DNA from: Candidatus Rokuibacteriota bacterium
GTDB lineage: Bacteria > JAUVQV01 > DATDCY01
Length of the DNA stretch: 45,667 nt
NCBI GenBank assembly: GCA_031406795.1
Contig: JANOHV010000107.1
Coordinates: 1-45,667, forward strand
Direction of reading: 5' to 3'
In this document: positions 10,018 through 45,667 of the stretch, piece after piece
Layout of the letters: each line of letters starts with the position of its first letter
Numbering within the stretch: position 1 is the stretch's first letter
Notes under the pieces: generated by a model
Told to the model about the DNA's origin: nothing
Databases searched by the model: none
The model's input: only the letters and a program-made list of their open reading frames with translations
Program-made: the position numbers and the translations under genes

Positions 10018-11421
10018 TCAGCGACCGGACTGCCGGCGCAGACGCAGCAGCGTCCGGAACATCGGCTCCGCGAGCCCCTGCTCGCGGCAGATCCGCGCGG
10101 CCTCCTGCAGCATCGCGGGCGGCGGCGTCGATTCGGAGGACCTGACGCAGTTCGGCCGCGTCGCGATCTCGCGGCTGACGATCTCCAGCAGCCGCTCCCG
10201 GCCGAGTTCCGGGGAGACATAGAAGCGCCGCAGCAGCAGCGATTCCCCCGCCTCCACGAAGCCCTCCTCGAGGGCCGTTTCGTGCAGACCGGTGTGCGGG
10301 TAGATGCGCAGCCCCTCGCTGATGTGGACCATGTCCTCGGGGTCCACGAAGCGGTCGACGAACGCGAAAGTCTCGGCGATCGTCTGCTCGGTCTCTCCCG
10401 GACCGCCGAGCAGGAAGAACCACATCGTCGGCATCTTCGCCTCGCGCACGATCGTCGCGGTGCGCTCCAGTTCGGCGAGCGTGAAGTTCTTGCGCAGACG
10501 CCGGAGCATCGCCGGCGAGGCGGAATCGGGGGTCGAGTCGATCTGCGCGAAGCCGGCGGCGGCCATCAGGTCGATCAACTCGCGCGTCACCTGCGCCGGG
10601 TTCACGCCCATGGTGCGCAGGCGGACCTGCAGGCCGCGCTGCGCGATCTCCCAGCAGATGCTCTCGGCGTGCCCCGGCGGGTCGTTGAAGACGGAGTCGA
10701 CGAACTCGAACGCGACATCGCCGAGGCGCTCGCGCACCTGCTGGATCTCGTCGACGACGATTTCGGCGGGGCGGCAGCGGAAGTTCCGCCCCTCGACCTG
10801 CGGATAGGAGCAGTAGAGGCAGCCGCGGGCGCACCCGCGCTTGGTCTGGATCGGGTAGGCGCCGCGCTCGCGGTAGGGCGCGTAGTCGATCCGCTTGTCG
10901 ATCTCGGGGAACGGGAGCAGATCGAGCAGCACCGGCCGCGCGGCGCGCAACGGGGCCGGGCCGCCGGGGGCGACGACGCCGGGAACCGCGAGCGGATCAA
11001 AACCGCGCTCGAGCGCTTCGAGCAGCGCGGGGAATGCGGCCTCCCCCTCGCCGACCACGCCGTAGTCGGCCTCGCACTCCTCGAGCCACTCCTGCGGAAA
11101 GATCGAGAAGCCGCTGCCGCCGAGGATCAGCGGCGCCTGCGTCAGCCGGCGCAGCGGGCGCGCGAAGCGCTCGCGCACGTCGTTGACGAAGGAGACCCCC
11201 GCTTCCATGACGATGTCGTCGATGTTACGAATGCCGAGGCCGACGTAGTCCGGGGCGAACTCCGCCACCACCGCGGCGAGACCCGCCCCTTCGGCGAGCG
11301 GGTCGTGGATGCGCACCTGCCAGCCGGGCTCGAGCGCCGCCGCGACGAGACAGAGGCCGATCGGACTGACGGGATAGGGCACGCGCAGGGAGTTGGAGCC
11401 GACGAGCAGGACCTTTTTCAC
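10018..11421 (-). CDS. B12-binding domain radical SAM protein (lipid-biosynthesis type)
   Basis: N-terminal cobalamin-binding region (PYPVSPIGL, GIRNIDD, LGGSGFS, GEGE); QTKRGCARGCLYC CxxxCxxC; GGPGET. Confidence 0.92.
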   Translation of the reverse strand: MKKVLLVGSNSLRVPYPVSPIGLCLVAAALEPGWQVRIHDPLAEGAGLAAVVAEFAPDYVGLGIRNIDDIVMEAGVSFVNDVRERFARPLRRLTQAPLILGGSGFSIFPQEWLEECEADYGVVGEGEAAFPALLEALERGFDPLAVPGVVAPGGPAPLRAARPVLLDLLPFPEIDKRIDYAPYRERGAYPIQTKRGCARGCLYCSYPQVEGRNFRCRPAEIVVDEIQQVRERLGDVAFEFVDSVFNDPPGHAESICWEIAQRGLQVRLRTMGVNPAQVTRELIDLMAAAGFAQIDSTPDSASPAMLRRLRKNFTLAELERTATIVREAKMPTMWFFLLGGPGETEQTIAETFAFVDRFVDPEDMVHISEGLRIYPHTGLHETALEEGFVEAGESLLLRRFYVSPELGRERLLEIVSREIATRPNCVRSSESTPPPAMLQEAARICREQGLAEPMFRTLLRLRRQSGR

Positions 11422-11693
11422 TGATCCGTGCGGTTGGCCCGGACGAACTCGGCGATGCGGTCGACGCTCTGCAGAACGTCCCGCGCGAGGTTCTGGTCGT
11501 CGATCTTCGCACCGTAGGTCTTCTGGAGCGCCACGAACAGCTCCACGGCGTCGAGCGAGTCCAGATCGAGCTTCGGGTTGCCGAAGATCGGCGCGCCGTC
11601 CTCGATGTCGTCGGGGGTGACGTCGGCGATCCTCAGCGCGTCGATGATCAGTTGCTTGATTTCGCGGTTGAGTTTTTTCGCGTCGTTGTCCAT
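11418..11693 (-). CDS. Acyl carrier protein
   Basis: LDLDSLDAVEL phosphopantetheine site; acidic ~91 aa; GTGA overlap with the radical SAM gene. Confidence 0.92.
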   Translation of the reverse strand: MDNDAKKLNREIKQLIIDALRIADVTPDDIEDGAPIFGNPKLDLDSLDAVELFVALQKTYGAKIDDQNLARDVLQSVDRIAEFVRANRTDQ

Positions 11694-11711
11694 GGTCGCG
11701 CCCTTCACCAT

Positions 11712-11760
11712 GCAGGCCGCTGAAAAAGGCCCATCTGCTGGACCTTTTTGATCAGCCTGC
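11712..11760. repeat. Short inverted-repeat element (MITE/IS-end-like remnant)
   Basis: GCAGGCCGCTGAAAAAGG...CCTTTTTGATCAGCCTGC imperfect inverted repeat in the BtrH-ACP spacer. Confidence 0.5.
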
Positions 11761-11820
11761 CCGTTTCGAGTTGCTCAATACCCTGTGATCGTATCCTGGC
11801 AAAGTGTACCAATTCCAACG

Positions 11821-12822
11821 CTACTTTACGAGCCTGCCCAGACGGCGGAAGATCGCCTGCTCGGCGTCGGCGCGCTCGAGGATCATGTCGCCGAGCTCGC
11901 GCAGCTTCTCCGGCCCGAGATCGCGCCGCTTGCCCATCCGGGCGGCCGCGATCGAGACGTCGCGCCAGCGGTCGCCGTTCTCCATCATCGCCTTGGCGAC
12001 GTCGGCGACCTCGGGGTTGTCGAGGATCTTCGCGGCCTCCTGCAGGAACGTCGCGTAGAGGTAGCGGAAGCCGCCGCCGCCCGTCCCCCGCTCCTCGAGG
12101 ATCACGGCGATCATCATGACCTCGTGGGAGAGGTGATCGAGGTCCCGCGTGAGCCTCGGCCACTCCCGGACCTTGCGCGCGAAAAAGCGGATGCCGCGCA
12201 CGCCGAAGAACGGAATCGGCAGTTTGACCATGTAGAAGACCGCGTCCTTGATCCCCTGGCGCACGGCCGCCTTCAGGTCGGGCCGCTCGGGGACCGAGGC
12301 CGGCCAGAAGAGCAGCCCCTTCGGCGCGAACTGCCCGCGCGCGAACCGCGCCGTCCGGAAGACCGCTGCGTCGAGGCTCGTCGGCGCCGGGAAATAGGTA
12401 TCGCTGATCAGATAGCGCCCGTCCTTCTTTCCCGTCACGATCACGTAGTGCGCGTTGAAGTGGGCCCGGGTGTATTCGGGCAGGTAGTCCATGTAGAAGT
12501 AATCCACCTGCGCGCCGACGGGAACTCCGCGCTCGAGGAGCGCATCGAGCTCGCGCGTCGCCGCCGCCGGGTCGCGAAAGTTCAGCGTGTTCATCGGCAC
12601 GCCGAGGCGCGCCGGGGATTTCAGCCGGATCCGGCCGGGCTTGTTGCGCAGCGCGATCGTCGGGAAGGGGAGCATCGGGATGCTGAGGTACCCGAAGAAG
12701 AGCGCCCCGCTGACCCCGAAGACCAGCGACTCGGTGACCTCCATGCCGGCGCCTCGCAGCAGCGCGGTCACGGCGCCCGACTCGCAGTGCGCCGCCATCT
12801 TGTGGGTGAACGGCGCGCTCAT
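11821..12822 (-). CDS. BtrH N-terminal domain / DUF4872 protein (papain-like Cys-His-Asp)
   Basis: HCESG, FGVSGALFF, HFNAHY, ISD, EERGTGGGGFR; ATGA overlap with the upstream gene. Confidence 0.85.
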   Translation of the reverse strand: MSAPFTHKMAAHCESGAVTALLRGAGMEVTESLVFGVSGALFFGYLSIPMLPFPTIALRNKPGRIRLKSPARLGVPMNTLNFRDPAAATRELDALLERGVPVGAQVDYFYMDYLPEYTRAHFNAHYVIVTGKKDGRYLISDTYFPAPTSLDAAVFRTARFARGQFAPKGLLFWPASVPERPDLKAAVRQGIKDAVFYMVKLPIPFFGVRGIRFFARKVREWPRLTRDLDHLSHEVMMIAVILEERGTGGGGFRYLYATFLQEAAKILDNPEVADVAKAMMENGDRWRDVSIAAARMGKRRDLGPEKLRELGDMILERADAEQAIFRRLGRLVK

Positions 12823-13316
12823 CGACCCGCCCCCGCGTCGCCCTCTGCCGCAGCCGGGTCGCAGACTCCGACACGGGTCTTCGTCAGTAGCGGGTTCGCC
12901 GTGCGCTCCTGCCGCAACTCGACCCGGCCGTCCTGCGCCGCGATCACCTGGAACAGGTTCGCCACCGGGACGCCGAAGACCTCGGCGTAGCGGGCGGCGA
13001 GGCGCAGCTCGATCTCCCCGAACCCGGCCGGCGTCAGGTGCCGCCGCACGGCGCGACGGCTGACGCCGACGCGAACGGCGAGATCGGCCTCCGCCAGCCC
13101 GAGAGTCTGGAGGTAAAACCAGACCGCGCTGACCTCCCCCGCCTCGAGCTTGCGCAGGCACTCGAGCCGGTAGCGCTCGCGCTTCTCGAAGAAGTCGTCG
13201 ATGAACTCCTGCGCGAGGTAGGAGCCCGTCTGGAGCGGCCCGTAGCTGGCGTCGTCGCGCTCGACGTACAGCACCACCTGGTGCGGGTTCACGGCCTTCA
13301 TGTCCTGTTCTTTCAC
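12819..13316 (-). CDS. Conserved protein with XRE-like HTH (BtrH-associated)
   Basis: LAEADLAVRVGVSRRAVRRHLTPAGF...YAEVFGVPV helix-turn-helix-like segment; coupled to the BtrH-like gene. Confidence 0.7.
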   Translation of the reverse strand: MKEQDMKAVNPHQVVLYVERDDASYGPLQTGSYLAQEFIDDFFEKRERYRLECLRKLEAGEVSAVWFYLQTLGLAEADLAVRVGVSRRAVRRHLTPAGFGEIELRLAARYAEVFGVPVANLFQVIAAQDGRVELRQERTANPLLTKTRVGVCDPAAAEGDAGAGR

Positions 13317-13320: not shown

Positions 13321-14595
13321 CTACTCCCTTCTGCGGAAGACCAACACGGCGATACCCAGCGTCGCCGCGCCGAACGCGACGAGCTTCGCGAGCTTCGGCA
13401 GCACGCTGGCGAGCGTCCCGCCGCGCAGGAAGAGGTCGACGAAAGCGCTCAGGCCCCACTGCAGCGGCGAGAGCTGCCCGATCTGCTGCATCTTGGCGGG
13501 CATCAGGAAAGAGGGGACCATGATCCCGCCGAGCGCGGCGGCGATCACGACCGCGGTGGCGCAGAAGACGGACGACTGCTCGGTGGTCCGGTTGATCGCC
13601 CCCATCATGATCCCGAACCCGGTGGCGGCGAACGCGGCGGCCAGCGCGGCGGCGGCGATGGCGGCGTACTGGGTCCCCACCTCCAGCGACGCCGTGCCGA
13701 GACGGGGCAGCACCTGCGCGCCGATCACCAGCAGGAAGCTGAACTGGATCAGGCAGACCCCCATGTAGACGATCACCTTCGCGGCGAGGATCGTCACCGG
13801 GGAAACCGGCAGCGTGCGCAGGCGCACCAGCGTCCCGCCGTCGCGCTCGCGGATGATCCCCCCGGAGAGCGGTATCGAGATCATGAACATCGCGAAGAGC
13901 GTCCAGGCCGGAACGTTCTGCTGCACCGAGCTGGGCATCACGTCCGCGCCCCCCTGCCCGGCGAAAAACTCGCGGACCGTGATGTGCTGCTCGGCCTCCC
14001 ACGACGAGCCATCCGCGGGCTTGCCGGTGACGCCGCTCATGAACCCCTGGATCTTGCCCATCATGACCTTGATCTCGACGCCCTGCGAGAGGCGCTCCAG
14101 CGCGGTGATCACGGCCCGGCGAAACGGCGGGCGCACCGCCGGGTCGAAGTAGACGGCGATCTCCCCCGGCGGCTCGGCGGTGGCGACGGCCGGGGCCATC
14201 ATCGCGGGCAACATCCGCGCAAGCAGCCGGTCCGCGCCGGCGGCCACCCGCTCGGCCACGCCGGGGGGCACGACGATCCCCATGGTGTGGGTCCCGGCCT
14301 GCAACTCCTCGCGGATGATCTCCGCGGTCACCGCGCCCCCCCGCAGCTCGCGCACCACCGTGAATGCGCCCGTGCCGTCGAGCCCCTTCGCGACCGCGGC
14401 GCCGAACTCGTCCCCCGCCGTCACGGCGACGAGCACCGTCGTTCTGCCGCCCTGGACGGCCCGCAGCGCGTCCTCCTGCACGAGCGTCGTGATCAGCACC
14501 ATCGCGGTGGGCATCACGAACAGGACCGCGACCCCGCCGCGGTCGCGCAGCAGCAGCAGCAGTTCCTTCCAGACGACGGCCAGCAGTCTTCTCAT
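13321..14595 (-). CDS. ABC-2 type exporter permease
   Basis: WKELLLLLRD, SVQQNVPAW, IIRERDGGTLVRL, multiple TM segments, LGGIMVP. Confidence 0.92.
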   Translation of the reverse strand: MRRLLAVVWKELLLLLRDRGGVAVLFVMPTAMVLITTLVQEDALRAVQGGRTTVLVAVTAGDEFGAAVAKGLDGTGAFTVVRELRGGAVTAEIIREELQAGTHTMGIVVPPGVAERVAAGADRLLARMLPAMMAPAVATAEPPGEIAVYFDPAVRPPFRRAVITALERLSQGVEIKVMMGKIQGFMSGVTGKPADGSSWEAEQHITVREFFAGQGGADVMPSSVQQNVPAWTLFAMFMISIPLSGGIIRERDGGTLVRLRTLPVSPVTILAAKVIVYMGVCLIQFSFLLVIGAQVLPRLGTASLEVGTQYAAIAAAALAAAFAATGFGIMMGAINRTTEQSSVFCATAVVIAAALGGIMVPSFLMPAKMQQIGQLSPLQWGLSAFVDLFLRGGTLASVLPKLAKLVAFGAATLGIAVLVFRRRE

Positions 14596-14596
14596 G

Positions 14597-15346
14597 CTAG
14601 TCCCTCAGGCTCCTTCCGGTCAGCTCCAGGAAGAGCTCCTCCAGGTTGCGGCACCCGGGGCGCTCGGCGACCAGCTGCGCCGGCGGCCCCTGGAGCAGCA
14701 CCTTCCCCGAGTCCATGATGGCGACGCGCGTGCAGAGCTTCTGCGCCTCCTCCATGTAGTGGGTCGCGTAGACCATGGTCTCCCCGGCGCCGCTCAGCGC
14801 CCGCAGGTTCTCGAAGATCAGGCCGCGCGACTGCGGGTCGATCCCGACGGTCGGCTCGTCCAGCACGAGCAGCCGCGGGTGGTGAAGGATCCCCGCGGCG
14901 AGGTTTGCCCGGCGCTTCATGCCGCCCGAGTACTTCGATACCCGGCGGTCGGCGCTCTTCTCGAGGCCGACCACGTTCAGCAGCTCGTCGACCCGGCTCT
15001 TCAGCGCCGCACCGTACAGGCCGTGCATCCGCCCGAAGAATTCCAGGTTCTCCCGCCCGGTCAGCGTCTGATACAGCGCAATGTCCTGCGGGACGAACCC
15101 CAGCAGGTGCTTGATGCGGCCCGGATGACGGATGACATCCTCGCCGAACACCCGGACCTCGCCGCTCGTGGCCTTCAACAGCCCGCAGACGATCGAGAGC
15201 GTCGTCGTCTTGCCCGCCCCGTTCGGCCCGAGCAGCCCGAAGATCTCGCCCTCGCGCACCTCGAGGTCGAGTTCATTCACCGTGGCCTCGTCGTTCCCGT
15301 GGTAGCGCTTCACGAGGCCGCTTACCCGTATCGCCGCCGTCTCCAT
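14597..15346 (-). CDS. ABC exporter ATP-binding protein
   Basis: GPNGAGKTT, YSGGMKRR, LDEPTVGIDPQSR, THYMEEA; start chosen at METAAIR (15361 also possible). Confidence 0.93.
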   Translation of the reverse strand: METAAIRVSGLVKRYHGNDEATVNELDLEVREGEIFGLLGPNGAGKTTTLSIVCGLLKATSGEVRVFGEDVIRHPGRIKHLLGFVPQDIALYQTLTGRENLEFFGRMHGLYGAALKSRVDELLNVVGLEKSADRRVSKYSGGMKRRANLAAGILHHPRLLVLDEPTVGIDPQSRGLIFENLRALSGAGETMVYATHYMEEAQKLCTRVAIMDSGKVLLQGPPAQLVAERPGCRNLEELFLELTGRSLRD

Positions 15347-15472
15347 CCCCTGCCTTTGCATGTTGAGTCGGTCATGGTAACTGCGATCGAGGGTTGCTGC
15401 AATCGGTGGCAAGGCGTTTCTGGCCGACGGGGACACTTGCATGTCGGCCCTTTGGGGCGAATACTGTGGTAA

Positions 15473-17758
<2,286 letters not shown>

Positions 17759-17918
17759 TCGTTCCAGGAGCGGCTTCACGGGCACCTGACCGGGCGGAAA
17801 AAACAGGAAGCGAGCCGGCCTCGTGACGGAAATGCCGTCTGCGAGGCCGGCTGCCGGAAGGCTTCCGCCCCTGCCCTGCCGCGGACCGCGAGGCCCGGGC
17901 CATTGCCGGGGTGCCCGC

Positions 17919-18356: not shown

Positions 18357-18562
18357 CGGTCCCCCTCCCGCCTTGTCCGCCAACTGCAGTGCCCGCGCCG
18401 CGACTTCCTGTGCATACCTGAACCGGTAGGCCCCGAAAATATCCCGCCTGAGTCCGGCCCGCAATGGTGGAATCTGCCTATCTCCGGCTCACCCGGCCCG
18501 CGTCGATGCCAGGCGGTACCGATCGAAAACGATGTAAGCGTTCAATGAAGTGCGGTAACTTC

Positions 18563-18644: not shown

Positions 18645-18796
18645 TACTGATCGGGCCACCGTTCACTGAAGGGTTACGAGAACGATTCACTTTGTTCTTG
18701 CAGGCGTTCGTGCGAAGAGTATATTCGAGACGGCTCGCGCGCCGGTTCCGTTCTGGAGGCGGCGCCTCACGTCCAACGCAGTCGGGAGGGTGCGAC

Positions 18797-37417: not shown

Positions 37418-38025
37418 GCCGCGCCCGCTGGGCCGGCGTCTGCCTGCTGCTCGCCATGGCGGCGCCGCTGCGGGCCGCAAGCCCGCAGGACGAGGTTCTG
37501 GCGCGGCTGGCGCAGGGCGGCGCGGGGATCGAAACCGCGCAGGGGCGCGTCCGGCAGGAGAAACGCCTCGAGATCTTCCAGGACACCGTGGTTTCCTGGG
37601 GCCGCTTCGCCTACCGCCGCCCCGACCGGCTGCGCTGGGAACTGACGGACCCGGTCGTCACCGGCTTCGCGATCACCGGTGGGTCGGGCCGCCGCTGGCA
37701 CGGCCTGACGGGAAAGACCGAACCCTTCACGCTCGAGAGCGACCCGATGATGCGCGTGATCGCCGGCCAGATCCTGGCCTCGGTTCGCGCCGACTTCACC
37801 CCGCTGCAGAAGGAATACCGGATCAGCGTCGCCTCCGAGACGCCGGTGATCCTGCACCTCGAACCGCGGGTCGCCAATCCGTTCGTCGAGCGGGTGATCG
37901 TCACCTTCTCGAAGGGGGCCGGGCACGTCGAGTCGGTCGCGGTACGCGAAAAGGGTGGAGACCAGACGACGTTCAGCTTCAGCGACGTCGAGGTAAACCG
38001 GCCCCTCCCCGATGGCACGTTCTGA
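37414..38025 (+). CDS. LolA-like periplasmic carrier protein
   Basis: Signal peptide, QEKRL, SWGRF..RPDRLRWE..P, GDQTTFSFSDVEVN. Confidence 0.82.
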   Translation: MSRARWAGVCLLLAMAAPLRAASPQDEVLARLAQGGAGIETAQGRVRQEKRLEIFQDTVVSWGRFAYRRPDRLRWELTDPVVTGFAITGGSGRRWHGLTGKTEPFTLESDPMMRVIAGQILASVRADFTPLQKEYRISVASETPVILHLEPRVANPFVERVIVTFSKGAGHVESVAVREKGGDQTTFSFSDVEVNRPLPDGTF

Positions 38026-40387: not shown

Positions 40388-40974
40388 GAGCCTCTCTCGC
40401 CTGGCTGGCGCTGCCTCTGGCGGCGCTGCTGTTGTGCGGCTGCGCCGCCGCGCCGCGGCAGAGGGCGCCTTCGGCCGCGCCGCCCGCGTGGCTGGCGACG
40501 CCCGCGCTCTGGCGGATCCGGCAGGTGGTCCTGATCGAACTGGGCGAGAAGCAGTTCCCGGTGCAGGGCCTGCTCGAACTGGACACCGCGGCGGGCAGCC
40601 TGCGGCTGGTCGCGCTGGACGACTTCGGCGTCACGCTCTTTCGCCTGACGATCACCCGCGCGGGCGAGCGCGTCGACTTTCTGCTGCCGCTGGTGCCGCA
40701 GGGCGCCGAGGTCACCCGTTCGGTCGCCGCCAGCCTCCGGCGGATCTACCTCGAACCGGCGCTCGTCGATTCCGGTGGCGCCGGAGTCATGCTCGAAAGC
40801 GGGCCCGACGGCAACGTGGCGACGGCGGCCCCCCGCGGCGGCGGCTGGAGGGTTTGGTATGATGCCTACGGCGACGCGGGCGGCGTGCCGGTCCCGCGGG
40901 TGATTCGCTTCCAGCAGCGGGGAGGCGCCAGCCTGAAGATCAACCAGGAGAGCGTGAAGCGTGTCGACAAGTGA
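40384..40974 (+). CDS. DUF3261-like lipoprotein
   Basis: Lipobox LCGC; LRLVALDDFGVTLF; position right after MMPL, as in aryl polyene clusters. Confidence 0.7.
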   Translation: MRASLAWLALPLAALLLCGCAAAPRQRAPSAAPPAWLATPALWRIRQVVLIELGEKQFPVQGLLELDTAAGSLRLVALDDFGVTLFRLTITRAGERVDFLLPLVPQGAEVTRSVAASLRRIYLEPALVDSGGAGVMLESGPDGNVATAAPRGGGWRVWYDAYGDAGGVPVPRVIRFQQRGGASLKINQESVKRVDK

Positions 40975-40992: not shown

Positions 40993-43900
40993 CTAGCCAC
41001 CCCTGCGATTCGTCTCAAACATTTCCGCCGGCATCGGATGACGCAGGCGGTAGACCACCTTGATCGGCCGCTCGCTCTCATACCGCTCCACGTCGGCGGG
41101 CCCGAGATAGGTGAAGGGAACCGTCGCACCGTTGCGCTGCTTCACATCGCGGGCGAACAGAAGGATCGTGTATCCCCGCTCTTGGTGTCGGATGATGTTC
41201 TGTCCGGTGGGGCTCGCCTGGCTGGTGTTCGACTGTGACTCCCAATGAAACAGCTCGCGGCTAATCGGGTAGTCGGCATACATGGTGCTTGGCGAGAATT
41301 CTCGCTCTGATTTCTGAAAGGTGACGAGCATGGCGTAGGCGTTGAGGTGGGGTACATGGAGCACGCCGACGCCTATCTGCCCGGTCGTATCGATAGTTGC
41401 CAATCCCAGGGCGGCGCTAATGTCCAGGCTGCCGTATCTCGCGTGCAACTCGAGCGGAGAGGCAAAGGGGAGGGCAATCGTCACGGGTGAGACCCTGGAT
41501 TCCTCGGCAGCCCACTCGAGCACCTCGACCGCATCGGCGAGGATGGCGGGGTTCTCCCCGATCCTCGCAAGGGAATCACGGACCGTCCTAAATTGGCGCT
41601 GACTCCCGCCTCGGCCCCAGTAGCGGTAGTGCGTCGCGACCTCGAAGTTCTCGGCAGCGACCAGTGCGCCATCGACGTCACCGCTGAGGAGCTGGTTTGT
41701 CACGCCGCGAAGTCTGGCGAGTTCCTGCGGTCCATTCACTGAAGCCAGGCGTATCAGGGAGGATCGCAGCTGTTCATGATCGGGATCGGTCGGCGCCGGC
41801 CGCAGCCTGGACCTGGCTTTCCATCCCGACCAGCTCTCCCGCTTGAGAAGTACCTCGGGCTCGTAGTCGTGATAGCGGACGAAGTTGGCAAAGGTCAGTG
41901 ACTGTTGGGCCTCGCTTTCGAAGGTCTGTATCCGCTCGGGGATCTGGACGGCGAGGTTCAACAAGTTGGCCCGGATGTTCGCGAGCACGTAATCCCGCGC
42001 AACCGGATCCAGTTGAATCGAACAACCGGCCGGCAGGTGCGGGAAGTTCTTCTCAACCTCCTTGTCGATGCCGTAGCGGTGCCGCGGCAGCAGCGCTTTC
42101 AGCTTGAGATCGATGCGGTACTTCCTATGAGCCTGCCCAACGAAATCGAGGACCGTCAACGCGTCCTTGTCAGGCGCCCGGCGCAGGCCGCGTCCGAGCT
42201 GCTGCAGGAAGATGGTGAGGCTTTCCGTGGGTCGCAGGAACAAGACGGTGTTAATTTCCGGGACGTCGAGCCCCTCGTTCAGCACGTCCACGGTGAACAG
42301 GAAGGTGAGCTTCCCCGCGCGCAGCTCCTCGATCAGGCGGCCGCGATCGGCATCGCTGGTGTCGCCAGTGAGCACTGCCGAGGGGATCTCCTTCTCCGAG
42401 AACATGCGGGCCATGAACGCGGCGTGCCCGACGTTGACGCAGAAACCAATTCCCTTGACGCGCGTCAGGTCGGGTTCGTACTTCGCGAGCGCGGCCTGGA
42501 TGGCGTCCAGTCGCTGGAGCGCCAGGGCGTGGGCGCCGGTGTAGACTTTCTCCAGTTCGCTGCCGACGTATTTGCCGCCGGCCCAGAAATGGTCGGCATC
42601 CAGAGAGACTGGATCGGTAACCCCGAAGTAGTGGAAGGGGCACAGCAGCTTCTCCTCGAGCGCTTCGGGCAATCTGATCTCGGCGGCGAAACGGTTGCCG
42701 AAGTCCGCTGCCACCGGCTTGCCGTCCATGCGCTCCGGCGTGGCCGTCAGCCCGAGGAGAATGCGGGGCGTGAAGTGATCGAAGAGGGGGCGATAGCTCT
42801 GCGCTGTGCCGTGGTGCGCCTCGTCGACCACGATGTAGTCGTAGAAGTCGCCGCCGACCTGCTCCCAGAATTTCCGGGTGGAAAGCATGCCCACGGAGCA
42901 GAAGAGGTGATCCGCCCGGGCCGGCTGATGAGAGCCGACCAGCAACTCGCCGAAACCTGGCATGCGCAGCACGTTGCGGAAGGTCCCCAGGGCCTGCGTG
43001 AGAATCTCCTGCCGATGCGCGACGTAGAGGAGCCGGGCCTGCCGGCGGCGCGCCGTGTAGAATCGCTCGAAGTCGAAGGCAGCCACGACGGTCTTCCCGG
43101 TGCCGGTTGCGGCAATCACCAGGTTGCGCCAGTGATTATGCGCGGTCCGTTCGGCTTCGAGGGCTTCGAGGATGCGCTCCTGGAAGGGGTGCGGCGTCAG
43201 GTCGAAGAACGGCGCAGCGGCGGGGCCGGTGCGGTTTAACTCACGCGCGATCGCCTCGCGGAAACGCTGCGGGGCGGCGGGGTCGAAGTCCTGGAACTCA
43301 CGACTGTGCCAGTAGGTGTCGAACTCCGCGCGGAAGCGTTCGAGGATGTGCGGCATGTCGCGGGCGGTGACCTTGAGGTTCCACTCCAACCCGCTGGTCA
43401 TCGCGGCGCCGGACATGTTCGCAGAGCCAATGTAGGCGACGGAGAATCCGGAGGCACGGCGCAGGTGGTACGCCTTTGCGTGGAGGCGGGTGCGCTGGGT
43501 ATCGTAGGAGACGCGGACCTTCACGTTCGGCAAGCGGGCGAGCCACTCGACGGCGGGGGGATCGGAGGCGCCCATGTAGGAGGTGGTGATCACCCGGACC
43601 GGGATACGGCGGTCGCGCATCTCCTCGAAGGCTGGCATCAGCAGGCGCAGGCCCGACCACTTGATGAACGAGATCAGGATGTCGACCTGGTCGGCTGAAG
43701 CCATTTCGGCGGCTAGTTCCCGCGCAAGCGGCGGGTCTCCGGGCGCACCGGTAAAGAGCGACGTCTCGGTGAGCGGAGTCTCGGGGCGCACGTAGCGCGC
43801 CGCAAGGGCGTGCGGTGGCGAGATCTCGACGAGGAGGGGTTTGGGGTCGGGCAGCAGAGTTCGGTTCGCGAGGTGATCGTGGTCTTGGAATCCGGAAATG

Positions 43901-44124
43901 ATCTTGATCACCCGGTTGGCGATCTCCAACCGAACAACTGGATTGCGCTCCTCGCGTAATGCCTGCTCAAGGACGCGCGACACGAAGGCGGTGTATCGGG
44001 CCGGTTCCTCTTCGGGGTCGAGCTTGCCGAAGACGCTGCGCAATTCGGGGTGGCGGTCCAGAATCTCCTGGAGGTTTAGATGGCGCAGTTCCTCATAGAT
44101 ACCGAAGGCCGGCACGTCACTCAT
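40993..44124 (-). CDS. PLD nuclease-SF2 helicase-DUF3427 protein, SauUSI-like type IV restriction enzyme
   Basis: RLHAKAY...IGSANMS PLD motif, ATGTGKT, VDEAHH, GLTATPER, QQLGRGLR, C-terminal FHWESQS (DUF3427-like). Confidence 0.88.
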   Translation of the reverse strand: MSDVPAFGIYEELRHLNLQEILDRHPELRSVFGKLDPEEEPARYTAFVSRVLEQALREERNPVVRLEIANRVIKIISGFQDHDHLANRTLLPDPKPLLVEISPPHALAARYVRPETPLTETSLFTGAPGDPPLARELAAEMASADQVDILISFIKWSGLRLLMPAFEEMRDRRIPVRVITTSYMGASDPPAVEWLARLPNVKVRVSYDTQRTRLHAKAYHLRRASGFSVAYIGSANMSGAAMTSGLEWNLKVTARDMPHILERFRAEFDTYWHSREFQDFDPAAPQRFREAIARELNRTGPAAAPFFDLTPHPFQERILEALEAERTAHNHWRNLVIAATGTGKTVVAAFDFERFYTARRRQARLLYVAHRQEILTQALGTFRNVLRMPGFGELLVGSHQPARADHLFCSVGMLSTRKFWEQVGGDFYDYIVVDEAHHGTAQSYRPLFDHFTPRILLGLTATPERMDGKPVAADFGNRFAAEIRLPEALEEKLLCPFHYFGVTDPVSLDADHFWAGGKYVGSELEKVYTGAHALALQRLDAIQAALAKYEPDLTRVKGIGFCVNVGHAAFMARMFSEKEIPSAVLTGDTSDADRGRLIEELRAGKLTFLFTVDVLNEGLDVPEINTVLFLRPTESLTIFLQQLGRGLRRAPDKDALTVLDFVGQAHRKYRIDLKLKALLPRHRYGIDKEVEKNFPHLPAGCSIQLDPVARDYVLANIRANLLNLAVQIPERIQTFESEAQQSLTFANFVRYHDYEPEVLLKRESWSGWKARSRLRPAPTDPDHEQLRSSLIRLASVNGPQELARLRGVTNQLLSGDVDGALVAAENFEVATHYRYWGRGGSQRQFRTVRDSLARIGENPAILADAVEVLEWAAEESRVSPVTIALPFASPLELHARYGSLDISAALGLATIDTTGQIGVGVLHVPHLNAYAMLVTFQKSEREFSPSTMYADYPISRELFHWESQSNTSQASPTGQNIIRHQERGYTILLFARDVKQRNGATVPFTYLGPADVERYESERPIKVVYRLRHPMPAEMFETNRRGG

Positions 44125-44228
44125 TCAACGTCTTTTATGATCGAGCATAAGCGGATTTTGTCATCTCTGGTACAATTTAGCACAAATGATATTGTCCATA
44201 TTCGCATCGTGGCTATGGAGGTGACGTG

Positions 44229-44480
44229 ATGGAGGCTCTTCATCCGCAGTATGTAGTCGATGAACGAGGCATACCACACAGCGTCGTACTGGAAATAGGC
44301 GAATTTCGGAGCCTGCTCCAATCGGCCGGTGTTCAGATGCAGGATCTCCCGCTGGCCCGACCTCTGCGATTGAGCGACCTGGGCTGGGGCGGCGCTGATG
44401 CACTGGATACGCGCATTCGCCTGCGGTCCTTCGAGGATGATTGGGGAGCGCCCGGAATGGATGCTTATGACAATGTTTAA
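44229..44480 (+). CDS. Putative antitoxin
   Basis: Small acidic ORF with GGAGG RBS, overlapping the toxin start; C-terminal WGAPGMDAYD. Confidence 0.6.
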   Translation: MEALHPQYVVDERGIPHSVVLEIGEFRSLLQSAGVQMQDLPLARPLRLSDLGWGGADALDTRIRLRSFEDDWGAPGMDAYDNV

Positions 44481-44814
44481 AAGAGGCGACGTCGTTGTCG
44501 TCCGGTATCCCAACTCCGACCTTGTTACGTATAAGAAACGGCCCGCGCTCGTCGTCCAGGCTGATGACCTGGAAACCGGGATCAATCAGTCCCTGGTAGC
44601 ACTCATGACCACCAATGCGCAGCGAACTGGGCCCACCCGTGTGCCGTTCGAGAGAGCCAGTTCCGGTGGCCGTGCCATGGGGCTGCTCAGTGATTCCATT
44701 GTGGTAACAGACAACCTAGCCACCGTGCTTCACCGCGAAATCGACAAGGTCATCGGAACCTGTCCTCGAATGGCTGACGTTGACGACGCGCTACGTCGCA
44801 CACTGAGTCTGTAA
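44467..44814 (+). CDS. PemK/MazF family toxin
   Basis: KRGDVVVVRYPNSD..KKRPALVVQ, ALMTT, GLLSDS...DNLAT. Confidence 0.88.
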   Translation: MTMFKRGDVVVVRYPNSDLVTYKKRPALVVQADDLETGINQSLVALMTTNAQRTGPTRVPFERASSGGRAMGLLSDSIVVTDNLATVLHREIDKVIGTCPRMADVDDALRRTLSL

Positions 44815-44817
44815 AGC

Positions 44818-45210
44818 GTGTCGGTAACTGACCTGACTGACGCGATCCGCGGCGCCGCTGTCGGCGAGATCGAGCGCCGGGCGGACGGTGGCGTGCGCCA
44901 GCGGTACGTCTTCAACGCGGATTTTCCGGGATTCGCCGGCCACTTCCCGGGGCGGCCGATCCTCCCGGCGGTGCTGCAGATCATGGCGGCGAGCCTGCTG
45001 GTCGAGGCGGCGACGGGAGAGCGCCTGCAACCCGCTGCGATCGAGAGGGCGAAGTTTGTGCTCCCCATCGTCCCGGGAGCGCTGGTCGAGATCGCCTGCC
45101 GCCGCCTTTCCGGGGCGGTCGCCGATCTCTGGGAGATCCGCATCGACGCGGACCGGCAGGCGGCGGCGTCATTTTTCCTGACGCTGCGCGCGCCGGCGGC
45201 GGGCGCGTGA
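44818..45210 (+). CDS. FabZ/ApeI-like hotdog dehydratase
   Basis: FAGHFPGRPILPAVLQI, AKFVLPIVPG. Confidence 0.85.
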   Translation: MSVTDLTDAIRGAAVGEIERRADGGVRQRYVFNADFPGFAGHFPGRPILPAVLQIMAASLLVEAATGERLQPAAIERAKFVLPIVPGALVEIACRRLSGAVADLWEIRIDADRQAAASFFLTLRAPAAGA

Positions 45211-45667
45211 GAAAACCTTATTTCGACGGCCGGGAGGGGGATCCGCCGCCGCTCCGGTCGCTCGTCCGTCGCCGGGTCCGCTTCGAGGAAGTCGATCCAA
45301 TGGGCATCGTCTGGCACGGGCGCTACCCGGGGTATTTCGAGGATGGCCGGGTCGCGCTCGGCAGCCGCTACGGTATCGGGTACGAGGACTTCTTCCGCCA
45401 CGGCGTGCCGGCGCCGATCCGGCGACTCCAGATCGACTACCTGGCGCCGTTGCGGTTCCAGCAGGATTTCTCCGTCGAGGCGATCCTTCACTGGTCGGAC
45501 GCCGCCCGCCTCGATTTCGAATTCCTCATCCGCGGCGAGAGCGAAACCCTCCTGGCCACCGGTTGCTCGGTCCAGCTGATGGTCGACCCGGTGGGGGGTC
45601 TGCTGTTGCTGCCGCCGCCTTTCCGGGGCGGTCGCCGATCTCTGGGAGATCCGCATCGACGCGGACC
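45207..45667 (+). CDS. Acyl-CoA/ACP thioesterase (YbgC/4HBT, ApeK-like), 3' partial
   Basis: GTGA overlap with the dehydratase; RVRFEEVDPMGIVWHGRYPGYFEDGR; no stop, so absent from the ORF track; sequence after ~45609 is suspect. Confidence 0.85.
   Translation, partial: MRKPYFDGREGDPPPLRSLVRRRVRFEEVDPMGIVWHGRYPGYFEDGRVALGSRYGIGYEDFFRHGVPAPIRRLQIDYLAPLRFQQDFSVEAILHWSDAARLDFEFLIRGESETLLATGCSVQLMVDPVGGLLLLPPPFRGGRRSLGDPHRRG
45609..45667 (+). repeat. Exact 59-bp copy of 45096-45154 at the window end
   Basis: CTGCCGCCGCCTTTCCGGGGCGG...GACGCGGACC is identical at both sites. Confidence 0.9.

What the first reader, a model, noticed from the sequence alone, without database searches (positions are those of the whole stretch)
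10018..45667. Hybrid aryl-polyene/DAR-like lipid cluster with an unusually heavy radical-SAM and tailoring load
Seen: two divergent arms with many coupled junctions. The left arm has a sulfotransferase, Omp85, O-methyltransferase, ACP, CrtI-like oxidoreductase, FabF, DarB-like KAS, FabD, 3-hydroxyacyl-CoA dehydrogenase, two crotonases and a B12 radical SAM, then ABC exporter, HTH, BtrH, ACP and a second B12 radical SAM. The right arm has FabG, PaaK-like ligase, SPASM radical SAM, dehydratase, LolA, MMPL, DUF3261, dehydratase and thioesterase. Known: the LolA-MMPL-DUF3261/ApeI/ApeP/thioesterase set marks aryl polyene clusters, and DarB with BtrH and ABC genes occurs in flexirubin/dialkylresorcinol loci. 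FAS II genes together with B12 radical SAMs and phytoene desaturase-like genes resemble the clusters proposed for anammox ladderane/unusual lipids. Inference: the product is an exported, possibly C-methylated or cyclised and sulfated outer-membrane lipid or pigment. I know of no characterised pathway with this combination.
Basis: partly seen in the sequence, partly recalled or inferred. Interest (0 to 1): 0.85.

Follow-up and report, generated by a model that had tools for sequence, protein, structure and literature searches.

The report
Radical-SAM-rich polyene/resorcinol-type lipid gene cluster
This is a real gene cluster from an uncultured sediment bacterium, assembled from widespread but chemically uncharacterised gene cassettes, that most likely makes an exported, heavily modified outer-membrane lipid or pigment.

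Summary
Three things were missed.

- Each arm is split by unrelated DNA. A katG stretch lies at 15530-20252. A 3.9-kb nuclease-helicase/MazF insertion lies at 40993-44814 and is absent from a congener.
- The window is a whole contig. The right arm continues on contig C278 with a KS/CLF pair, three more B12 radical-SAM genes (one a true TIGR04072 member), a GT2 and an LpxL-type acyltransferase. That makes six radical-SAM genes in all.
- The cluster is modular.
  - The right arm is an aryl-polyene-like cassette carrying TIGR04072. The family passes its cut-off in 13 of 401 sampled genomes.
  - The left core is a DarB-like KS with two crotonases, 3HCDH, FabF, FabD, ACP and B12 radical-SAM genes. 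It recurs in 20 of 20 full-flank metagenome loci.
  - The DarH/DarG/ABC module is unlinked in one relative.

All three relatives-plus-self genomes holding the left-arm KS also hold the other modules.

No TAL, no FkbO/Hyg5-type chorismatase and no DarA hit were found, so "aryl" and "resorcinol" remain unproven. I found no characterised pathway. Verdict: a new variant of the flexirubin, aryl-polyene and "ladderane-like" FASII kind.

The parts
10018..11421 (-). B12-binding radical SAM no. 1 (module A)
   Evidence: Pfam B12-binding plus Radical_SAM. The best NCBIfam match is TIGR04072 at 320 bits, below the 360 cut-off. A CxxxCxxC motif lies at residue 197.
11418..11711 (-). Acyl carrier protein 1 (module A)
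   Evidence: Pfam PP-binding. The DSL serine is present.
11821..12822 (-). DarH, a BtrH-related acyltransferase (module A)
   Evidence: Pfam BtrH_N plus DUF4872. NF053550 DarH scores 323.9 bits, above its 300 cut-off.
12819..13316 (-).
   Evidence: No Pfam hit. NF053536 DarG family scores 39 bits, below its 70 cut-off.
13321..15538 (-). ABC-2 permease (13321-14595) and ABC ATPase (14597-15538)
   Evidence: Pfam ABC2_membrane families and ABC_tran. DrrA subfamily scores 252 bits.
15530..20252 (.). Intervening unrelated stretch, not cluster genes: KatG (+), two unassigned ORFs (-), DUF1428 (+), an OB-fold ORF (+)
   Evidence: Pfam peroxidase 242 bits and DUF1428 126 bits. The OB-fold ORF also abuts B12 rSAM no. 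2 in a 92%-identity metagenome relative, L037.
20281..21621 (-). B12-binding radical SAM no. 2 (module B)
   Evidence: Pfam. The best NCBIfam match is HpnR at 139 bits (cut-off 650). A CxxxCxxC motif lies at residue 221. It is present in 15 of 20 full-flank metagenome loci.
21618..22986 (-). Two crotonase-fold enzymes (21618-22283 and 22273-22986)
   Evidence: Pfam ECH_1 at 111 and 128 bits. Both keep the two catalytic Glu positions as judged against solved hydratases. The residue roles are recalled from rat enoyl-CoA hydratase.
22983..24200 (-). 3-hydroxyacyl-CoA dehydrogenase (start codon uncertain)
   Evidence: Pfam 3HCDH_N plus 3HCDH.
24101..25048 (-). FabD/MdcH-like acyltransferase
   Evidence: Pfam Acyl_transf_1. 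TIGR03131 scores 145 bits and TIGR00128 scores 129 bits. A GHSLG motif is present.
25036..26223 (-). Divergent StlD/DarB-related KAS III-fold ketosynthase
   Evidence: NF005293 scores 115 bits (cut-off 450) and DarB NF053539 scores 79 bits (cut-off 550). The only full-length PDB match is StlD 5gk0, E 4.5e-17. C157, H269, H270, N316 and H321 are invariant in 20 homologues.
26305..27528 (-). FabF-type ketosynthase with an intact Cys-His-His triad
   Evidence: Pfam. TIGR03150 scores 382 bits. Motifs TACSSG, HGTST and GHCL are present. It resembles ordinary FabF structures.
27525..29018 (-). CrtI-family FAD oxidoreductase
   Evidence: Pfam Amino_oxidase. TIGR02734 scores 124 bits (cut-off 238). 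It is found only in close relatives and in 0 of 20 full-flank metagenome loci.
29055..29429 (-). Acyl carrier protein 2
   Evidence: Pfam PP-binding. The DSL serine is present.
29455..30678 (-). O-methyltransferase; the likely true start is at 30504
   Evidence: Pfam Methyltransf_2 plus Dimerisation. The first 58 residues of the long ORF are an Arg/Gly-rich stretch, which is my reading of the sequence printed. In G001 a different B12 rSAM occupies this position.
30641..30898 (-). Small conserved ORF of unknown function
   Evidence: No family hit. tblastn matches at 80% identity in G001 and 60% in L068.
31067..32293 (-). Omp85-family outer-membrane protein
   Evidence: Pfam Omp85 at 50 bits. 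NF047779 scores 70.5 bits (cut-off 200).
32290..33408 (-). Sulfotransferase
   Evidence: Pfam Sulfotransfer_3 at 114 bits. The GHWRTGSTF and RRDP..S motifs are seen. Their assignment as PAPS-binding loops is recalled.
33534..34262 (+). FabG/FlxB-like ketoreductase
   Evidence: Pfam adh_short_C2. NF053542 FlxB scores 293 bits (cut-off 340).
34602..35915 (+). FlxY/PaaK-like acyl-CoA (or acyl-ACP) ligase
   Evidence: NF053551 FlxY scores 418 bits (cut-off 520).
35905..36957 (+). Radical SAM/SPASM enzyme
   Evidence: Pfam Radical_SAM plus SPASM. The best NCBIfam matches are AhbD/NirJ2, at 142-148 bits and far below cut-off. It lies next to a FlxY-like gene in G398, G181, G001 and G005 as well.
36977..37417 (+). 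FabZ-like hot-dog dehydratase
   Evidence: No Pfam hit. FabZ NF000582 matches at E 1.3e-6.
37414..40974 (+). LolA-like carrier (37414-38025), MMPL/HpnN-like RND transporter (38012-40387) and DUF3261 lipoprotein (40384-40974)
   Evidence: Pfam LolA, MMPL and a weak DUF3261 match. LolA2_flexi scores 68 bits (cut-off 125) and HpnN scores 102 bits.
40993..44814 (.). Inserted element, not cluster genes: PLD-nuclease/ResIII helicase/DUF3427 (40993-44124, -), an unassigned ORF, and a PemK/MazF toxin (44398-44814, +)
   Evidence: Pfam. It is absent from the syntenic G001 locus. It is flanked by 26-nt direct repeats, 81% alike, at 40954-40979 and 44811-44836. A contig of run X3 bridges its left junction (record 16).
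44818..45210 (+). ApeI-like hot-dog dehydratase
   Evidence: Pfam ApeI-like at 25.6 bits (cut-off 28.5) and FabA.
45207..45665 (+). 4HBT/YbgC-type thioesterase, cut by the contig end; the cluster continues on contig C278
   Evidence: Pfam 4HBT_2. G001 DNA downstream of its thioesterase matches C278:1-7713 at 86% identity and 7908-8729 at 84%.

Best explanation
This is one composite biosynthetic gene cluster for an exported, outer-membrane-targeted fatty-acid/polyketide lipid of the flexirubin type. It is built from four modules.

1. Module R is the right arm plus contig C278. It is an aryl-polyene-like type II system. A FlxY-like ligase loads a carboxylic-acid starter. A KS/CLF pair, a FabG-like reductase and two hot-dog dehydratases extend it into an unsaturated acyl chain. 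A thioesterase, a GT2 and an LpxL-type acyltransferase release or anchor it. LolA, MMPL and DUF3261 move it to the outer membrane.
2. Module B runs from ACP2 to B12 rSAM no. 2. It makes a second building block. The 3-hydroxyacyl-CoA dehydrogenase and the crotonases supply 3-keto and 2-enoyl thioesters. The StlD/DarB-related KS joins these into a cyclohexanedione or resorcinol-type head. The CrtI-like flavoenzyme may oxidise that head in place of DarA.
3. Module A holds DarH, DarG, an ACP, a B12 rSAM and an ABC-2 exporter. The BtrH-type acyltransferase DarH transfers the ACP-bound acyl chain onto the head group.
4. Module C holds the O-methyltransferase, the sulfotransferase and Omp85, which decorate the product and place it in the membrane.

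Five cobalamin radical-SAM enzymes and one SPASM enzyme add C-methyl groups or other radical modifications to the chains.

Shown here: gene content, intact catalytic motifs, conservation, and co-occurrence of the modules. Inferred: every substrate, the order of steps, and the joining of two halves.
For: Families and motifs:
- Searches give the family matches. DarH is above its cut-off (324 against 300). The C278 copy of TIGR04072 scores 600 against 360.
- All six rSAM genes keep CxxxCxxC. FabF keeps Cys-His-His. Both ACPs keep their serine. Both crotonases keep two Glu. The sulfotransferase motifs are present.

Linkage:
- G001 (same genus) and metagenome contig L036 (90% identical KS) keep module B beside the sulfotransferase-Omp85 pair, divergent from FabG-FlxY-SPASM. 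L036 also keeps the OMT. In G001 another B12 rSAM stands at the OMT position.
- G001 runs straight on into the C278 genes.

Genome-level co-occurrence:
- The left-arm KS is in 3 of the 6 genomes of the phylum held here. All 3 also carry module A and an R-type set.

Independent re-association in other lineages:
- G003 joins DarB-like, DarH, ACP and ABC genes with SPASM, TIGR04072, a B12rSAM3w homologue (63% identical to the weak-Pfam B12/rSAM-like gene at C278:1566-2831), GT2 and LpxL-AT.
- Metagenome loci L081, L098, L104, L109 and L113 place ACP, two KS genes, LolA (absent from L081) and GT2 around the module B genes.
- L101 has DarG-DarH-ACP followed by a sulfotransferase at 43% identity.

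Precedent:
- FlxY of Chitinophaga is a proven 4-coumarate-CoA ligase in a flexirubin cluster that also encodes LolA, an exporter, a GT and an acyltransferase (PMC3992019, passages read).
Against: - No match to the FlxA TAL model and none to the FkbO/Hyg5 chorismatase model in a 99.9%-complete genome. No known route to an aryl starter is therefore encoded.
- No DarA hit appeared among the cluster proteins scanned. I could not confirm that the library holds a DarA model.
- The KS scores 115 and 79 bits against cut-offs of 450 and 550.
- FlxY, FlxB, LolA2 and DarG are all below their cut-offs.
- The modules are separable. In G001, module A lies on another contig. In G005, the R-type genes lie about 281 kb from A+B and no LolA, MMPL or DUF3261 match was found beside them.
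- Of 20 full-flank metagenome loci chosen by the KS, only 7 have a GT2 match, 4 LolA, 3 DarH and 1 a sulfotransferase within 10 kb. None has CrtI, OMT, Omp85, FlxY, FabG or SPASM.
- The relatives are few and are kin. No product is known.
Confidence: 0.5

Rival explanations
1. There are two or three independent lipid pathways that happen to lie side by side in this lineage. One is an R-type 'ladderane-like' aryl-polyene-type cluster. The other is a separate module B (with module A) pathway. Each gives its own product.
For: - Module B recurs as a self-contained cassette. In 20 full-flank loci, a crotonase is present in 20, 3HCDH in 19, FabF in 17, FabD in 17, ACP in 16 and B12 rSAM no. 2 in 15. 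R-type genes are usually not within 10 kb.
- R-type sets occur without the B-type KS. G398, G364 and G181 show this. TIGR04072 passes its cut-off in 13 of 401 genomes, against 3 of 401 for the KS.
- G005 keeps them about 281 kb apart, and G001 has module A on another contig.
Against: - All 3 genomes with the KS also have A and R-type genes.
- Unrelated lineages re-associate B-type genes with KS pairs, LolA and GT2, and with DarH/ABC plus TIGR04072.
- Module B has no export, release or anchoring genes of its own.
- The only ACP genes found in G000's cluster lie in the left arm, although the R arm needs a carrier.
Confidence: 0.25
2. Module B is not a resorcinol-type condensing unit. It would instead be a priming or reverse-beta-oxidation-like (or beta-branching-like) unit that feeds a single chain into the R-arm synthase. 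The KAS III enzyme would start the chain. 3HCDH and the crotonases would act as reductase and dehydratase. The B12 rSAMs would C-methylate or cyclise. The end product would be one branched or cyclised acyl lipid, not a two-part ester and not necessarily a pigment.
For: - No DarA, TAL or chorismatase was found.
- The KS is far below the DarB cut-offs.
- The cassette has the same parts list as an AT-ACP-KS-HMGS-ECH-ECH beta-branching set. That parts list is recalled.
- NCBI names TIGR04072 'lipid biosynthesis'.
Against: - FabF keeps its active-site Cys, so it is not a decarboxylating KS.
- The KS matched no HMG-CoA synthase Pfam model. Its only full-length PDB match is the cyclohexanedione-forming StlD.
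- A DarH above cut-off and a DarG-family gene argue for DAR-type logic.
Confidence: 0.2
3. The cluster makes true ladderane (concatenated cyclobutane) lipids, as in anammox bacteria.
For: TIGR04072 membership of the C278 gene. A CrtI-like gene next to FabF and an ACP, as in the anammox-specific set described in PMC13459092 (passages read).
Against: - TIGR04072 is over cut-off in 13 of 401 sampled genomes.
- Ladderane-like clusters are reported from many non-anammox phyla with no ladderanes shown (PMC9902471, passages read).
- Desulfotalea, which has a syntenic cluster, gave no ladderanes (PMC2649909, abstract).
- PDB searches with ACP2, the dehydratase and FabF showed no special likeness to any entry. 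An entry I only guess to be the anammox KS (9s5h) ranked below ordinary FabF.
Confidence: 0.03

Closest known systems
Flexirubin clusters of Chitinophaga pinensis and Flavobacterium johnsoniae (flxA-flxY plus the dar genes)
   Same: A FlxY-like ligase, a FlxB-like reductase, several KS genes, dehydratases, a thioesterase, LolA, an exporter, a GT and an acyltransferase. It also shares DarH (above cut-off), a DarG-family protein, a DarB-related KS, an ACP and an ABC-2 transporter (PMC3992019 passages).
   Different: No TAL and no DarA hit. All matches except DarH are below the NCBIfam cut-offs. This cluster adds five B12 rSAMs, a SPASM rSAM, 3HCDH, two crotonases, a CrtI-like enzyme, a sulfotransferase and Omp85. 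The host is not a Bacteroidota.
Arcuflavin (xanthomonadin-dialkylresorcinol hybrid) loci of Azoarcus sp. BH72
   Same: An aryl-polyene-type export set (LolA, exporter, dehydratase, AMP-ligase, ACP) plus a dar locus with a KS, a BtrH-like protein, a conserved hypothetical, an ABC ATPase and permease, and an ACP. It sits outside Bacteroidota and is split over separate loci (PMC3949708, passages read).
   Different: Azoarcus has DarA and a XanB2-type chorismatase. Neither was found here. No radical-SAM genes are mentioned in that paper (0 occurrences of the term).
'Ladderane-like' FASII clusters of Kuenenia stuttgartiensis and Desulfotalea psychrophila (Rattray et al. 2009), which correspond to the TIGR04072 neighbourhood
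   Same: FASII-type KS paralogues combined with radical-SAM enzymes, a phytoene-dehydrogenase-like flavoenzyme, a 'phenylacetyl-CoA ligase', a glycosyltransferase and a new membrane protein (PMC2649909, section 9). The C278 gene is a TIGR04072 member.
   Different: The product of those clusters is also unknown. The terms enoyl-CoA hydratase and hydroxyacyl-CoA do not occur in the main text of the 2016 expression study of the Kuenenia genes (PMC4790861). Module B, the DarH/ABC module, the sulfotransferase and Omp85 therefore appear to be additions here.
Aryl polyene (ape) clusters of E. coli and Xenorhabdus (names ApeC-ApeR recalled, not from a call)
   Same: A KS/CLF pair, a ketoreductase, two hot-dog dehydratases (ApeI-like Pfam match), a thioesterase, an adenylating enzyme, LolA-MMPL-DUF3261, a GT and an LPLAT-type acyltransferase.
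   Different: This cluster has radical-SAM genes inserted among them. The ACPs lie in the other arm. No aryl-starter route was found.

Membership tests
Flexirubin/dialkylresorcinol (DAR) cluster | DarB/StlD-type condensing ketosynthase | tested here: inconclusive
   NF005293 scores 115 bits (cut-off 450) and NF053539 scores 79 bits (cut-off 550). StlD is the only full-length PDB match, E 4.5e-17. The protein is related but is not a member by the curated scores.
Flexirubin/dialkylresorcinol (DAR) cluster | DarA aromatase next to DarB | tested here: inconclusive
   No DarA-named hit appeared for any cluster protein in NCBIfam or Pfam, and no unassigned gene of about 300 aa lies in the left arm. 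I could not confirm that the library holds a DarA model. Six guessed accessions were other families.
Flexirubin/dialkylresorcinol (DAR) cluster | BtrH-related acyltransferase DarH with a DarG-family protein, an ACP and an ABC-2 transporter | tested here: met
   DarH scores 323.9 bits, above 300. DarG family scores 39 bits, below 70. ACP, permease and ATPase are present.
Flexirubin/dialkylresorcinol (DAR) cluster | Tyrosine ammonia-lyase FlxA supplying 4-coumarate, and the FlxY ligase | tested here: not met
   NF053541 gave 0 matches and 0 first-look candidates in G000, which is 99.9% complete. The same search rang in 5 of 14 control genomes. The FlxY-like gene scores 418 bits, below 520.
Aryl polyene (APE) cluster | Type II KS/CLF pair, ketoreductase, two hot-dog dehydratases, thioesterase and adenylating enzyme | tested here: met
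   Searches cover the window genes. One search covers C278, which has a KS C-terminal part and a KS-N-like gene without an evident active-site motif. The ApeI-like match is just below the Pfam cut-off.
Aryl polyene (APE) cluster | LolA-like, MMPL and DUF3261 export set with a GT2 and an LPLAT-type acyltransferase | tested here: met
   The DUF3261 match is weak (19.6 bits against 22.3).
Aryl polyene (APE) cluster | Aromatic starter acid (4-hydroxybenzoate or a related acid) and a conjugated polyene product | not testable with these tools
   This needs chemistry. The FkbO/Hyg5 chorismatase model gave 0 matches and the TAL model gave 0 matches, so no known dedicated starter route is encoded.
TIGR04072 'lipid biosynthesis B12-binding/radical SAM protein' neighbourhood (ladderane-like FASII clusters) | A protein above the TIGR04072 cut-off (360 bits) | tested here: met
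   C278:2834-4156 scores 599.7-599.9 bits. The window copy at 10018-11421 scores only 320 bits.
TIGR04072 'lipid biosynthesis B12-binding/radical SAM protein' neighbourhood (ladderane-like FASII clusters) | Conserved neighbours: a PaaK-like ligase, a second rSAM, KS paralogues, a GT and a membrane transporter | tested here: met
   The same neighbours, with 40-63% identical proteins, occur in G398, G364, G181 and G003. This agrees with section 9 of PMC2649909.
Anammox ladderane-specific set (amxACP, amxFabZ, KS/CLF, PDH-like enzyme, B12 rSAM) | Specific likeness to the solved anammox proteins | tested here: inconclusive
   PDB searches with ACP2, the dehydratase and FabF gave only generic matches. 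Molecule names in the table do not give the organism, so I cannot be sure which entries are from anammox bacteria.
HMG-synthase beta-branching cassette | A decarboxylating KS (Cys replaced by Ser) and an HMGS-family enzyme | tested here: not met
   FabF keeps Cys in TACSSG. The KAS III-like enzyme has no HMG_CoA_synt Pfam hit and only 34-37 bits to HMGS NCBIfam models.

The most novel reading that the evidence does not exclude
Two conserved, unnamed cassettes together would encode a new class of radical-SAM-tailored ketoacyl lipids in non-anammox bacteria. One cassette holds the StlD/DarB-related KS, two crotonases, 3HCDH, FabF, FabD, an ACP and two B12 rSAMs. The other holds FlxY, SPASM, KS/CLF, B12rSAM3w, TIGR04072, GT2 and an LpxL-type acyltransferase. 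The product would be multiply C-methylated or ring-closed polyene/alkyl-cyclohexanedione esters, O-methylated and sulfated in this lineage, and placed in the outer membrane. The TIGR04072 enzymes would act on ACP-bound acyl chains. That would make this family a tractable stand-in for the unsolved radical chemistry of ladderane biosynthesis.
Probability: 0.3. Interest if true: 0.8.

Novelty: new variant of a known kind. Interest (0 to 1): 0.55.

Why it matters
Radical-SAM modification of non-isoprenoid (ketoacyl) lipids is almost unexplored. A 2026 review names only ladderanes and jawsamycin as proposed cases (PMC13459092, passages read).

Genome-mining surveys report "ladderane" clusters from many non-anammox phyla with no known product (PMC9902471, passages read). 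This locus shows how such a cluster is put together from separable cassettes. Several of those cassettes are highly conserved across phyla: the KS is 64-75% identical and B12rSAM3w is about 60% identical.

The locus also ties the cassettes to DAR-type acyl transfer, sulfation and an outer-membrane export route. It defines a compact gene set that could be expressed to learn what TIGR04072-type enzymes do.

The value is as a lead. The organism is uncultured and nothing here shows the chemistry.

Tried and rejected
- Six guessed NCBIfam accessions, tried to find a DarA model, turned out to be other families. Two of them were still useful: LolB2_flexi gave no match and the FlxA TAL model gave no match. 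I then stopped guessing.
- The beta-branching (HMGS cassette) reading was rejected because FabF keeps its Cys and the KS has no HMGS match.
- The true-ladderane reading is judged unlikely (see the rival explanations).
- PDB searches for likeness to anammox proteins were uninformative.
- The protein atlas returned only generic KAS III clusters.
- The genome-contig scan with the CrtI-like protein gave a single relative.
- Read laying used contigs only.
  - No contig joining 40993 to 44814 (an insertion-free form) was listed in X2, X3 or X4.
  - Many short-sided joints are listed (sides of 19-28 letters). I treat them as noise from other organisms.
  - Stretches without cover in the RNA run X7 carry no meaning.
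  - Small-share runs X4-X12 were not used for habitat.
- My three-way junction alignment used wrong G001 coordinates and shows nothing.
- No KS phylogeny with named DarB, StlD or FabH references was built, because I held no reference sequences.

Full report
**What is in the window**

The DNA is about 69% G+C, so plain ORF lists are swamped by spurious frames. I called genes from the codon-position G+C pattern. I then scanned each call against Pfam and NCBIfam.

Minus strand, moving left from 33408:
- sulfotransferase
- Omp85
- a small conserved ORF
- O-methyltransferase
- ACP
- CrtI-family flavoenzyme
- FabF
- a KAS III-fold enzyme related to StlD/DarB
- FabD-like acyltransferase
- 3-hydroxyacyl-CoA dehydrogenase
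- two crotonases
- a B12 radical-SAM gene

Further left on the same strand:
- ABC ATPase
- ABC-2 permease
- a BtrH-type protein that passes NCBI's DarH cut-off (324 bits against 300)
- ACP
- a second B12 radical-SAM gene

Plus strand, from 33534:
- FabG/FlxB-like reductase
- FlxY/PaaK-like ligase
- radical SAM/SPASM enzyme
- hot-dog dehydratase
- LolA
- MMPL
- DUF3261
- ApeI-like dehydratase
- thioesterase

Positions 1-10000 hold housekeeping genes: an SNase-like nuclease, UvrA, two Opp-type ATPases, Fpg, NifU, an M48 peptidase and two YbjQ genes.

Both arms are interrupted.

- Between the ABC ATPase and the B12 rSAM at 20281 lie KatG, two unassigned ORFs, a DUF1428 gene and an OB-fold ORF, at 15530-20252.
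- Between DUF3261 and the ApeI-like gene lie a 1043-aa PLD-nuclease/ResIII-helicase/DUF3427 gene, an unassigned ORF and a PemK/MazF gene, at 40993-44814.

The second stretch is an insertion.
- In the congener G001, DUF3261 runs directly into the ApeI-like gene.
- In the window the element is flanked by 26-nt direct repeats, 81% alike, at 40954-40979 and 44811-44836. These duplicate the overlap of the two genes, so both ORFs stay whole.
- A contig from another run of the same study bridges the left junction (record 16).

The window is also the whole of contig C176, and its end cuts the thioesterase gene.

**The rest of the cluster**

DNA downstream of the thioesterase in G001 matches contig C278 of the window's own genome. 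C278:1-7713 matches at 86% identity and 7908-8729 at 84%. About 0.6 kb is missing between the two contigs.

C278 encodes, in order:
- the C-terminal part of a KS
- a KS-N-like gene with no evident active-site motif, which I read as CLF-like
- a divergent B12/radical-SAM-like gene (here called B12rSAM3w)
- a B12 radical-SAM gene scoring 600 bits on TIGR04072 (cut-off 360)
- a third B12 radical-SAM gene
- a GT2 with a DUF2062 domain
- an LpxL-type acyltransferase
- an exported protein of unknown family

Unrelated genes follow: a zeta-toxin-like kinase and a topoisomerase III-RecQ fusion.

The cluster therefore holds five B12-type radical-SAM genes and one SPASM gene. All six keep a CxxxCxxC motif. 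The window's own TIGR04072-like gene at 10018-11421 scores 320 bits, below the cut-off.

**Other motif checks**

- FabF keeps Cys-His-His.
- Both ACPs keep the DSL serine.
- FabD keeps GHSLG.
- Both crotonases keep the two Glu positions that align with solved hydratases. The catalytic role of those residues is recalled.
- The sulfotransferase keeps two motifs that I recall as its PAPS-binding loops.

**Relatives and modularity**

The phylum holds only 6 genomes in the held collection. The NCBI title of the closest record names Candidatus Rokubacteria.

The left-arm KS was found in 3 of those 6 genomes: G000, G001 (90% identity) and G005 (56%). It was not found with this query in G002 (88% complete), G003 (95%) or G004 (92%).

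- **G001** keeps the stretch from B12 rSAM no. 2 to ACP2, then Omp85 and the sulfotransferase, divergent from FabG through to the thioesterase and on into the C278 genes. It differs in two ways. A different B12 rSAM stands where the O-methyltransferase is. The ABC-DarG-DarH-ACP-B12 rSAM module (84-90% identical) lies on another contig, C15.
- **G005** has that module directly beside the KS module, in convergent orientation. It has no OMT, Omp85 or sulfotransferase match. An R-type set lies about 281 kb away on the same contig: FabG, FlxY, SPASM, ApeI-like, thioesterase, KS, CLF, three B12 rSAMs, GT2 and LpxL-AT. No LolA, MMPL or DUF3261 match was found in the 60 kb fetched there.
- **L036**, a metagenome contig with a 90%-identical KS, has the window's layout, including the OMT, CrtI, the sulfotransferase, Omp85 and the divergent FabG-FlxY-SPASM.

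All 3 genomes with the KS therefore carry all the main modules, but linkage varies. These genomes are few and are kin, so this is suggestive only.

**The right arm is a widespread cassette**

TIGR04072 passes its cut-off in 13 of 401 sampled genomes (G000 included) and in 0 of 14 control genomes.

Around the best hits in unrelated genomes, the same neighbours recur.
- G398 has FabG, FabF, ACP, FlxY (45% identity), SPASM (44%), a dehydratase, LolA, MMPL, ApeI-like, KS, B12rSAM3w (62%), TIGR04072 (40%) and GT2.
- G364 and G181 have parts of this set.
- G015 and G203 showed only the rSAM gene, with little else matching.
- G003, a congener without the left-arm KS, has its own version. It joins a 27%-identical DarB-like KS, DarH (41%), ACP and ABC genes with SPASM, TIGR04072, B12rSAM3w (63%), LpxL-AT and GT2.

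This is the kind of cluster described in 2009 for Kuenenia, Desulfotalea, Geobacter and Pelobacter. That description lists radical-SAM enzymes, a phytoene-dehydrogenase-like enzyme, a phenylacetyl-CoA ligase, a GT and a new membrane protein (PMC2649909, section 9 read). Desulfotalea gave no ladderanes (abstract of the same paper).

Surveys report such 'ladderane' clusters from many non-anammox phyla with unknown function (PMC9902471, passages read).

**The left core is also a conserved cassette**

The KS is rare among species representatives. It was found in 3 of 401 genomes at E <= 1e-25, all from its own phylum.

It is common in metagenomes. There were 1236 proteins with E <= 1e-10 among the 8000 candidates scored. 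The 120 listed are 64-92% identical and are named, at most, '3-oxoacyl-ACP synthase III'. In an alignment of 20 of them, C157, H269, H270, N316 and H321 are invariant.

A metagenome scan gave 413 pattern matches. Of these, 320 encode a relative, and 80 loci were kept.

I ran tblastn with all cluster proteins at E <= 1e-8 and kept the best non-overlapping hits. In the 20 loci that have full 10-kb flanks:

| Match | Loci of 20 |
|---|---|
| a crotonase | 20 |
| 3HCDH | 19 |
| FabF | 17 |
| FabD | 17 |
| ACP2 | 16 |
| B12 rSAM no. 2 | 15 |
| a best hit to the second crotonase, ECH2 | 14 |
| B12 rSAM no. 1 | 10 |
| a B12rSAM3w-like gene | 9 |
| GT2 | 7 |
| ACP1 | 6 |
| LolA | 4 |
| DarH | 3 |
| DarG | 3 |
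| MMPL | 1 |
| ABC ATPase | 1 |
| sulfotransferase | 1 |
| CrtI, OMT, Omp85, FlxY, FabG, SPASM | 0 each |

Caveats: the loci were chosen by the KS, some are near-duplicates (L074 and L075), and genes more than 10 kb away are unseen.

A second architecture recurs in L081, L098, L104, L109 and L113. It places an ACP, two KS genes, LolA (absent from L081) and GT2 around the cassette. L101 has DarG-DarH-ACP followed by a sulfotransferase at 43% identity.

**How it most likely works**

The best-supported reading is flexirubin-type logic, as set out under the best explanation.

- An R-arm type II system builds an unsaturated acyl chain from a ligase-activated starter. It carries the release, anchoring and export genes.
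- The left core builds a second unit. The dehydrogenase and the crotonases make 3-keto and 2-enoyl thioesters, the two substrate types of StlD/DarB enzymes. That substrate pairing is recalled from the StlD/DarB literature, not from a call.
- DarH joins the two parts.
- The O-methyltransferase, the sulfotransferase and the radical-SAM enzymes tailor the product.
- The ABC-2 transporter, LolA, MMPL, DUF3261 and Omp85 place it in the outer membrane.

All substrates and steps are inferred.

Against this reading:
- No TAL and no FkbO/Hyg5 chorismatase were found in a 99.9%-complete genome.
- No DarA hit was found.
- The KS lies far below the DarB cut-offs.
- The modules are separable.

'Aryl' and 'resorcinol' therefore remain labels of resemblance. 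The main rivals are independent neighbouring pathways, and a single-chain pathway in which the left core is a priming or processing unit.

**Expression and occurrence**

Three runs of one study, labelled freshwater sediment metagenome, hold 0.79-0.98 of the sampled words. One of them may be the source.

A metatranscriptomic library from another study (X7) contains eight listed short contigs of 191-422 nt. They lie on CrtI, ACP2, Omp85, the sulfotransferase, the ligase, LolA, MMPL and the thioesterase. The first six differ from the window by about 1-4%, the MMPL contig by about 6% and the thioesterase contig by about 7%. The tool warns that DNA can be present in RNA libraries. This is a weak hint that a close relative's cluster is transcribed.

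**Literature**

Searches combining flexirubin and dar names, ladderane, radical SAM, aryl polyene, TIGR04072, BtrH, sulfotransferase and enoyl-CoA hydratase found no characterised pathway with these cassettes.

Supplementary tables were closed, and subscription journals are not covered, so prior description elsewhere cannot be excluded.

**Verdict**

The locus is a real, apparently intact mosaic of conserved but chemically uncharacterised cassettes. It is a new variant of the flexirubin, aryl-polyene and 'ladderane-like' FASII kind, not a new kind of system.

Noticed in passing
window 40954-44836: A 3.86-kb insertion carries a PLD-nuclease/ResIII-helicase/DUF3427 gene and a PemK/MazF toxin gene and sits inside the operon. 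It is flanked by 26-nt direct repeats, 81% alike, that duplicate the DUF3261/ApeI gene overlap, so both flanking ORFs stay intact. It is absent from the congener G001.
   Followed up: partly
L018 (G000:C278) 10129-14103: A single 1324-aa ORF matches DNA topoisomerase III over residues 23-621 (644 bits) and RecQ helicase over 666-1005 (498 bits). This is a natural TopoIII-RecQ fusion. It lies just past the cluster, next to a zeta-toxin/AAA_33-like kinase ORF (9549-10139).
   Followed up: no
L018 (G000:C278) 1566-2831, and homologues in G398, G364, G003 and G005: A divergent B12/radical-SAM-like protein has Pfam matches below cut-off but an intact CxxxCxxC motif. It is 60-63% identical across unrelated genomes, whereas its neighbours are only 40-45% identical. 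It always lies directly upstream of the TIGR04072 gene where that gene is seen.
   Followed up: partly
L012 (G001:C7:22001-42000), first ~15 kb: The region upstream of the G001 cluster is full of repeated segments of about 110-130 bp. They match many places on G000 contigs C157, C235, C210, C133 and C255 at 82-99% identity. This is a dispersed or tandem repeat family of unknown nature.
   Followed up: no
window 30641-30898: A small ORF directly after the Omp85 stop codon, in the same frame, has no family match. tblastn finds it conserved in G001 (80% over 45 aa) and in L068 (60%), each time next to a B12 radical-SAM gene.
   Followed up: partly
G001 (L012-L014, L118) and G005 (L015-L017, L115-L117): Many cluster genes in these two assemblies appear as two or more adjacent tblastn pieces or carry in-frame stops. 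This looks like assembly frameshifts rather than decay, but I did not test it.
   Followed up: no
window 9158-9928: Two adjacent YbjQ-family genes lie next to an M48 peptidase immediately outside the cluster border. They have no evident link to the cluster.
   Followed up: no
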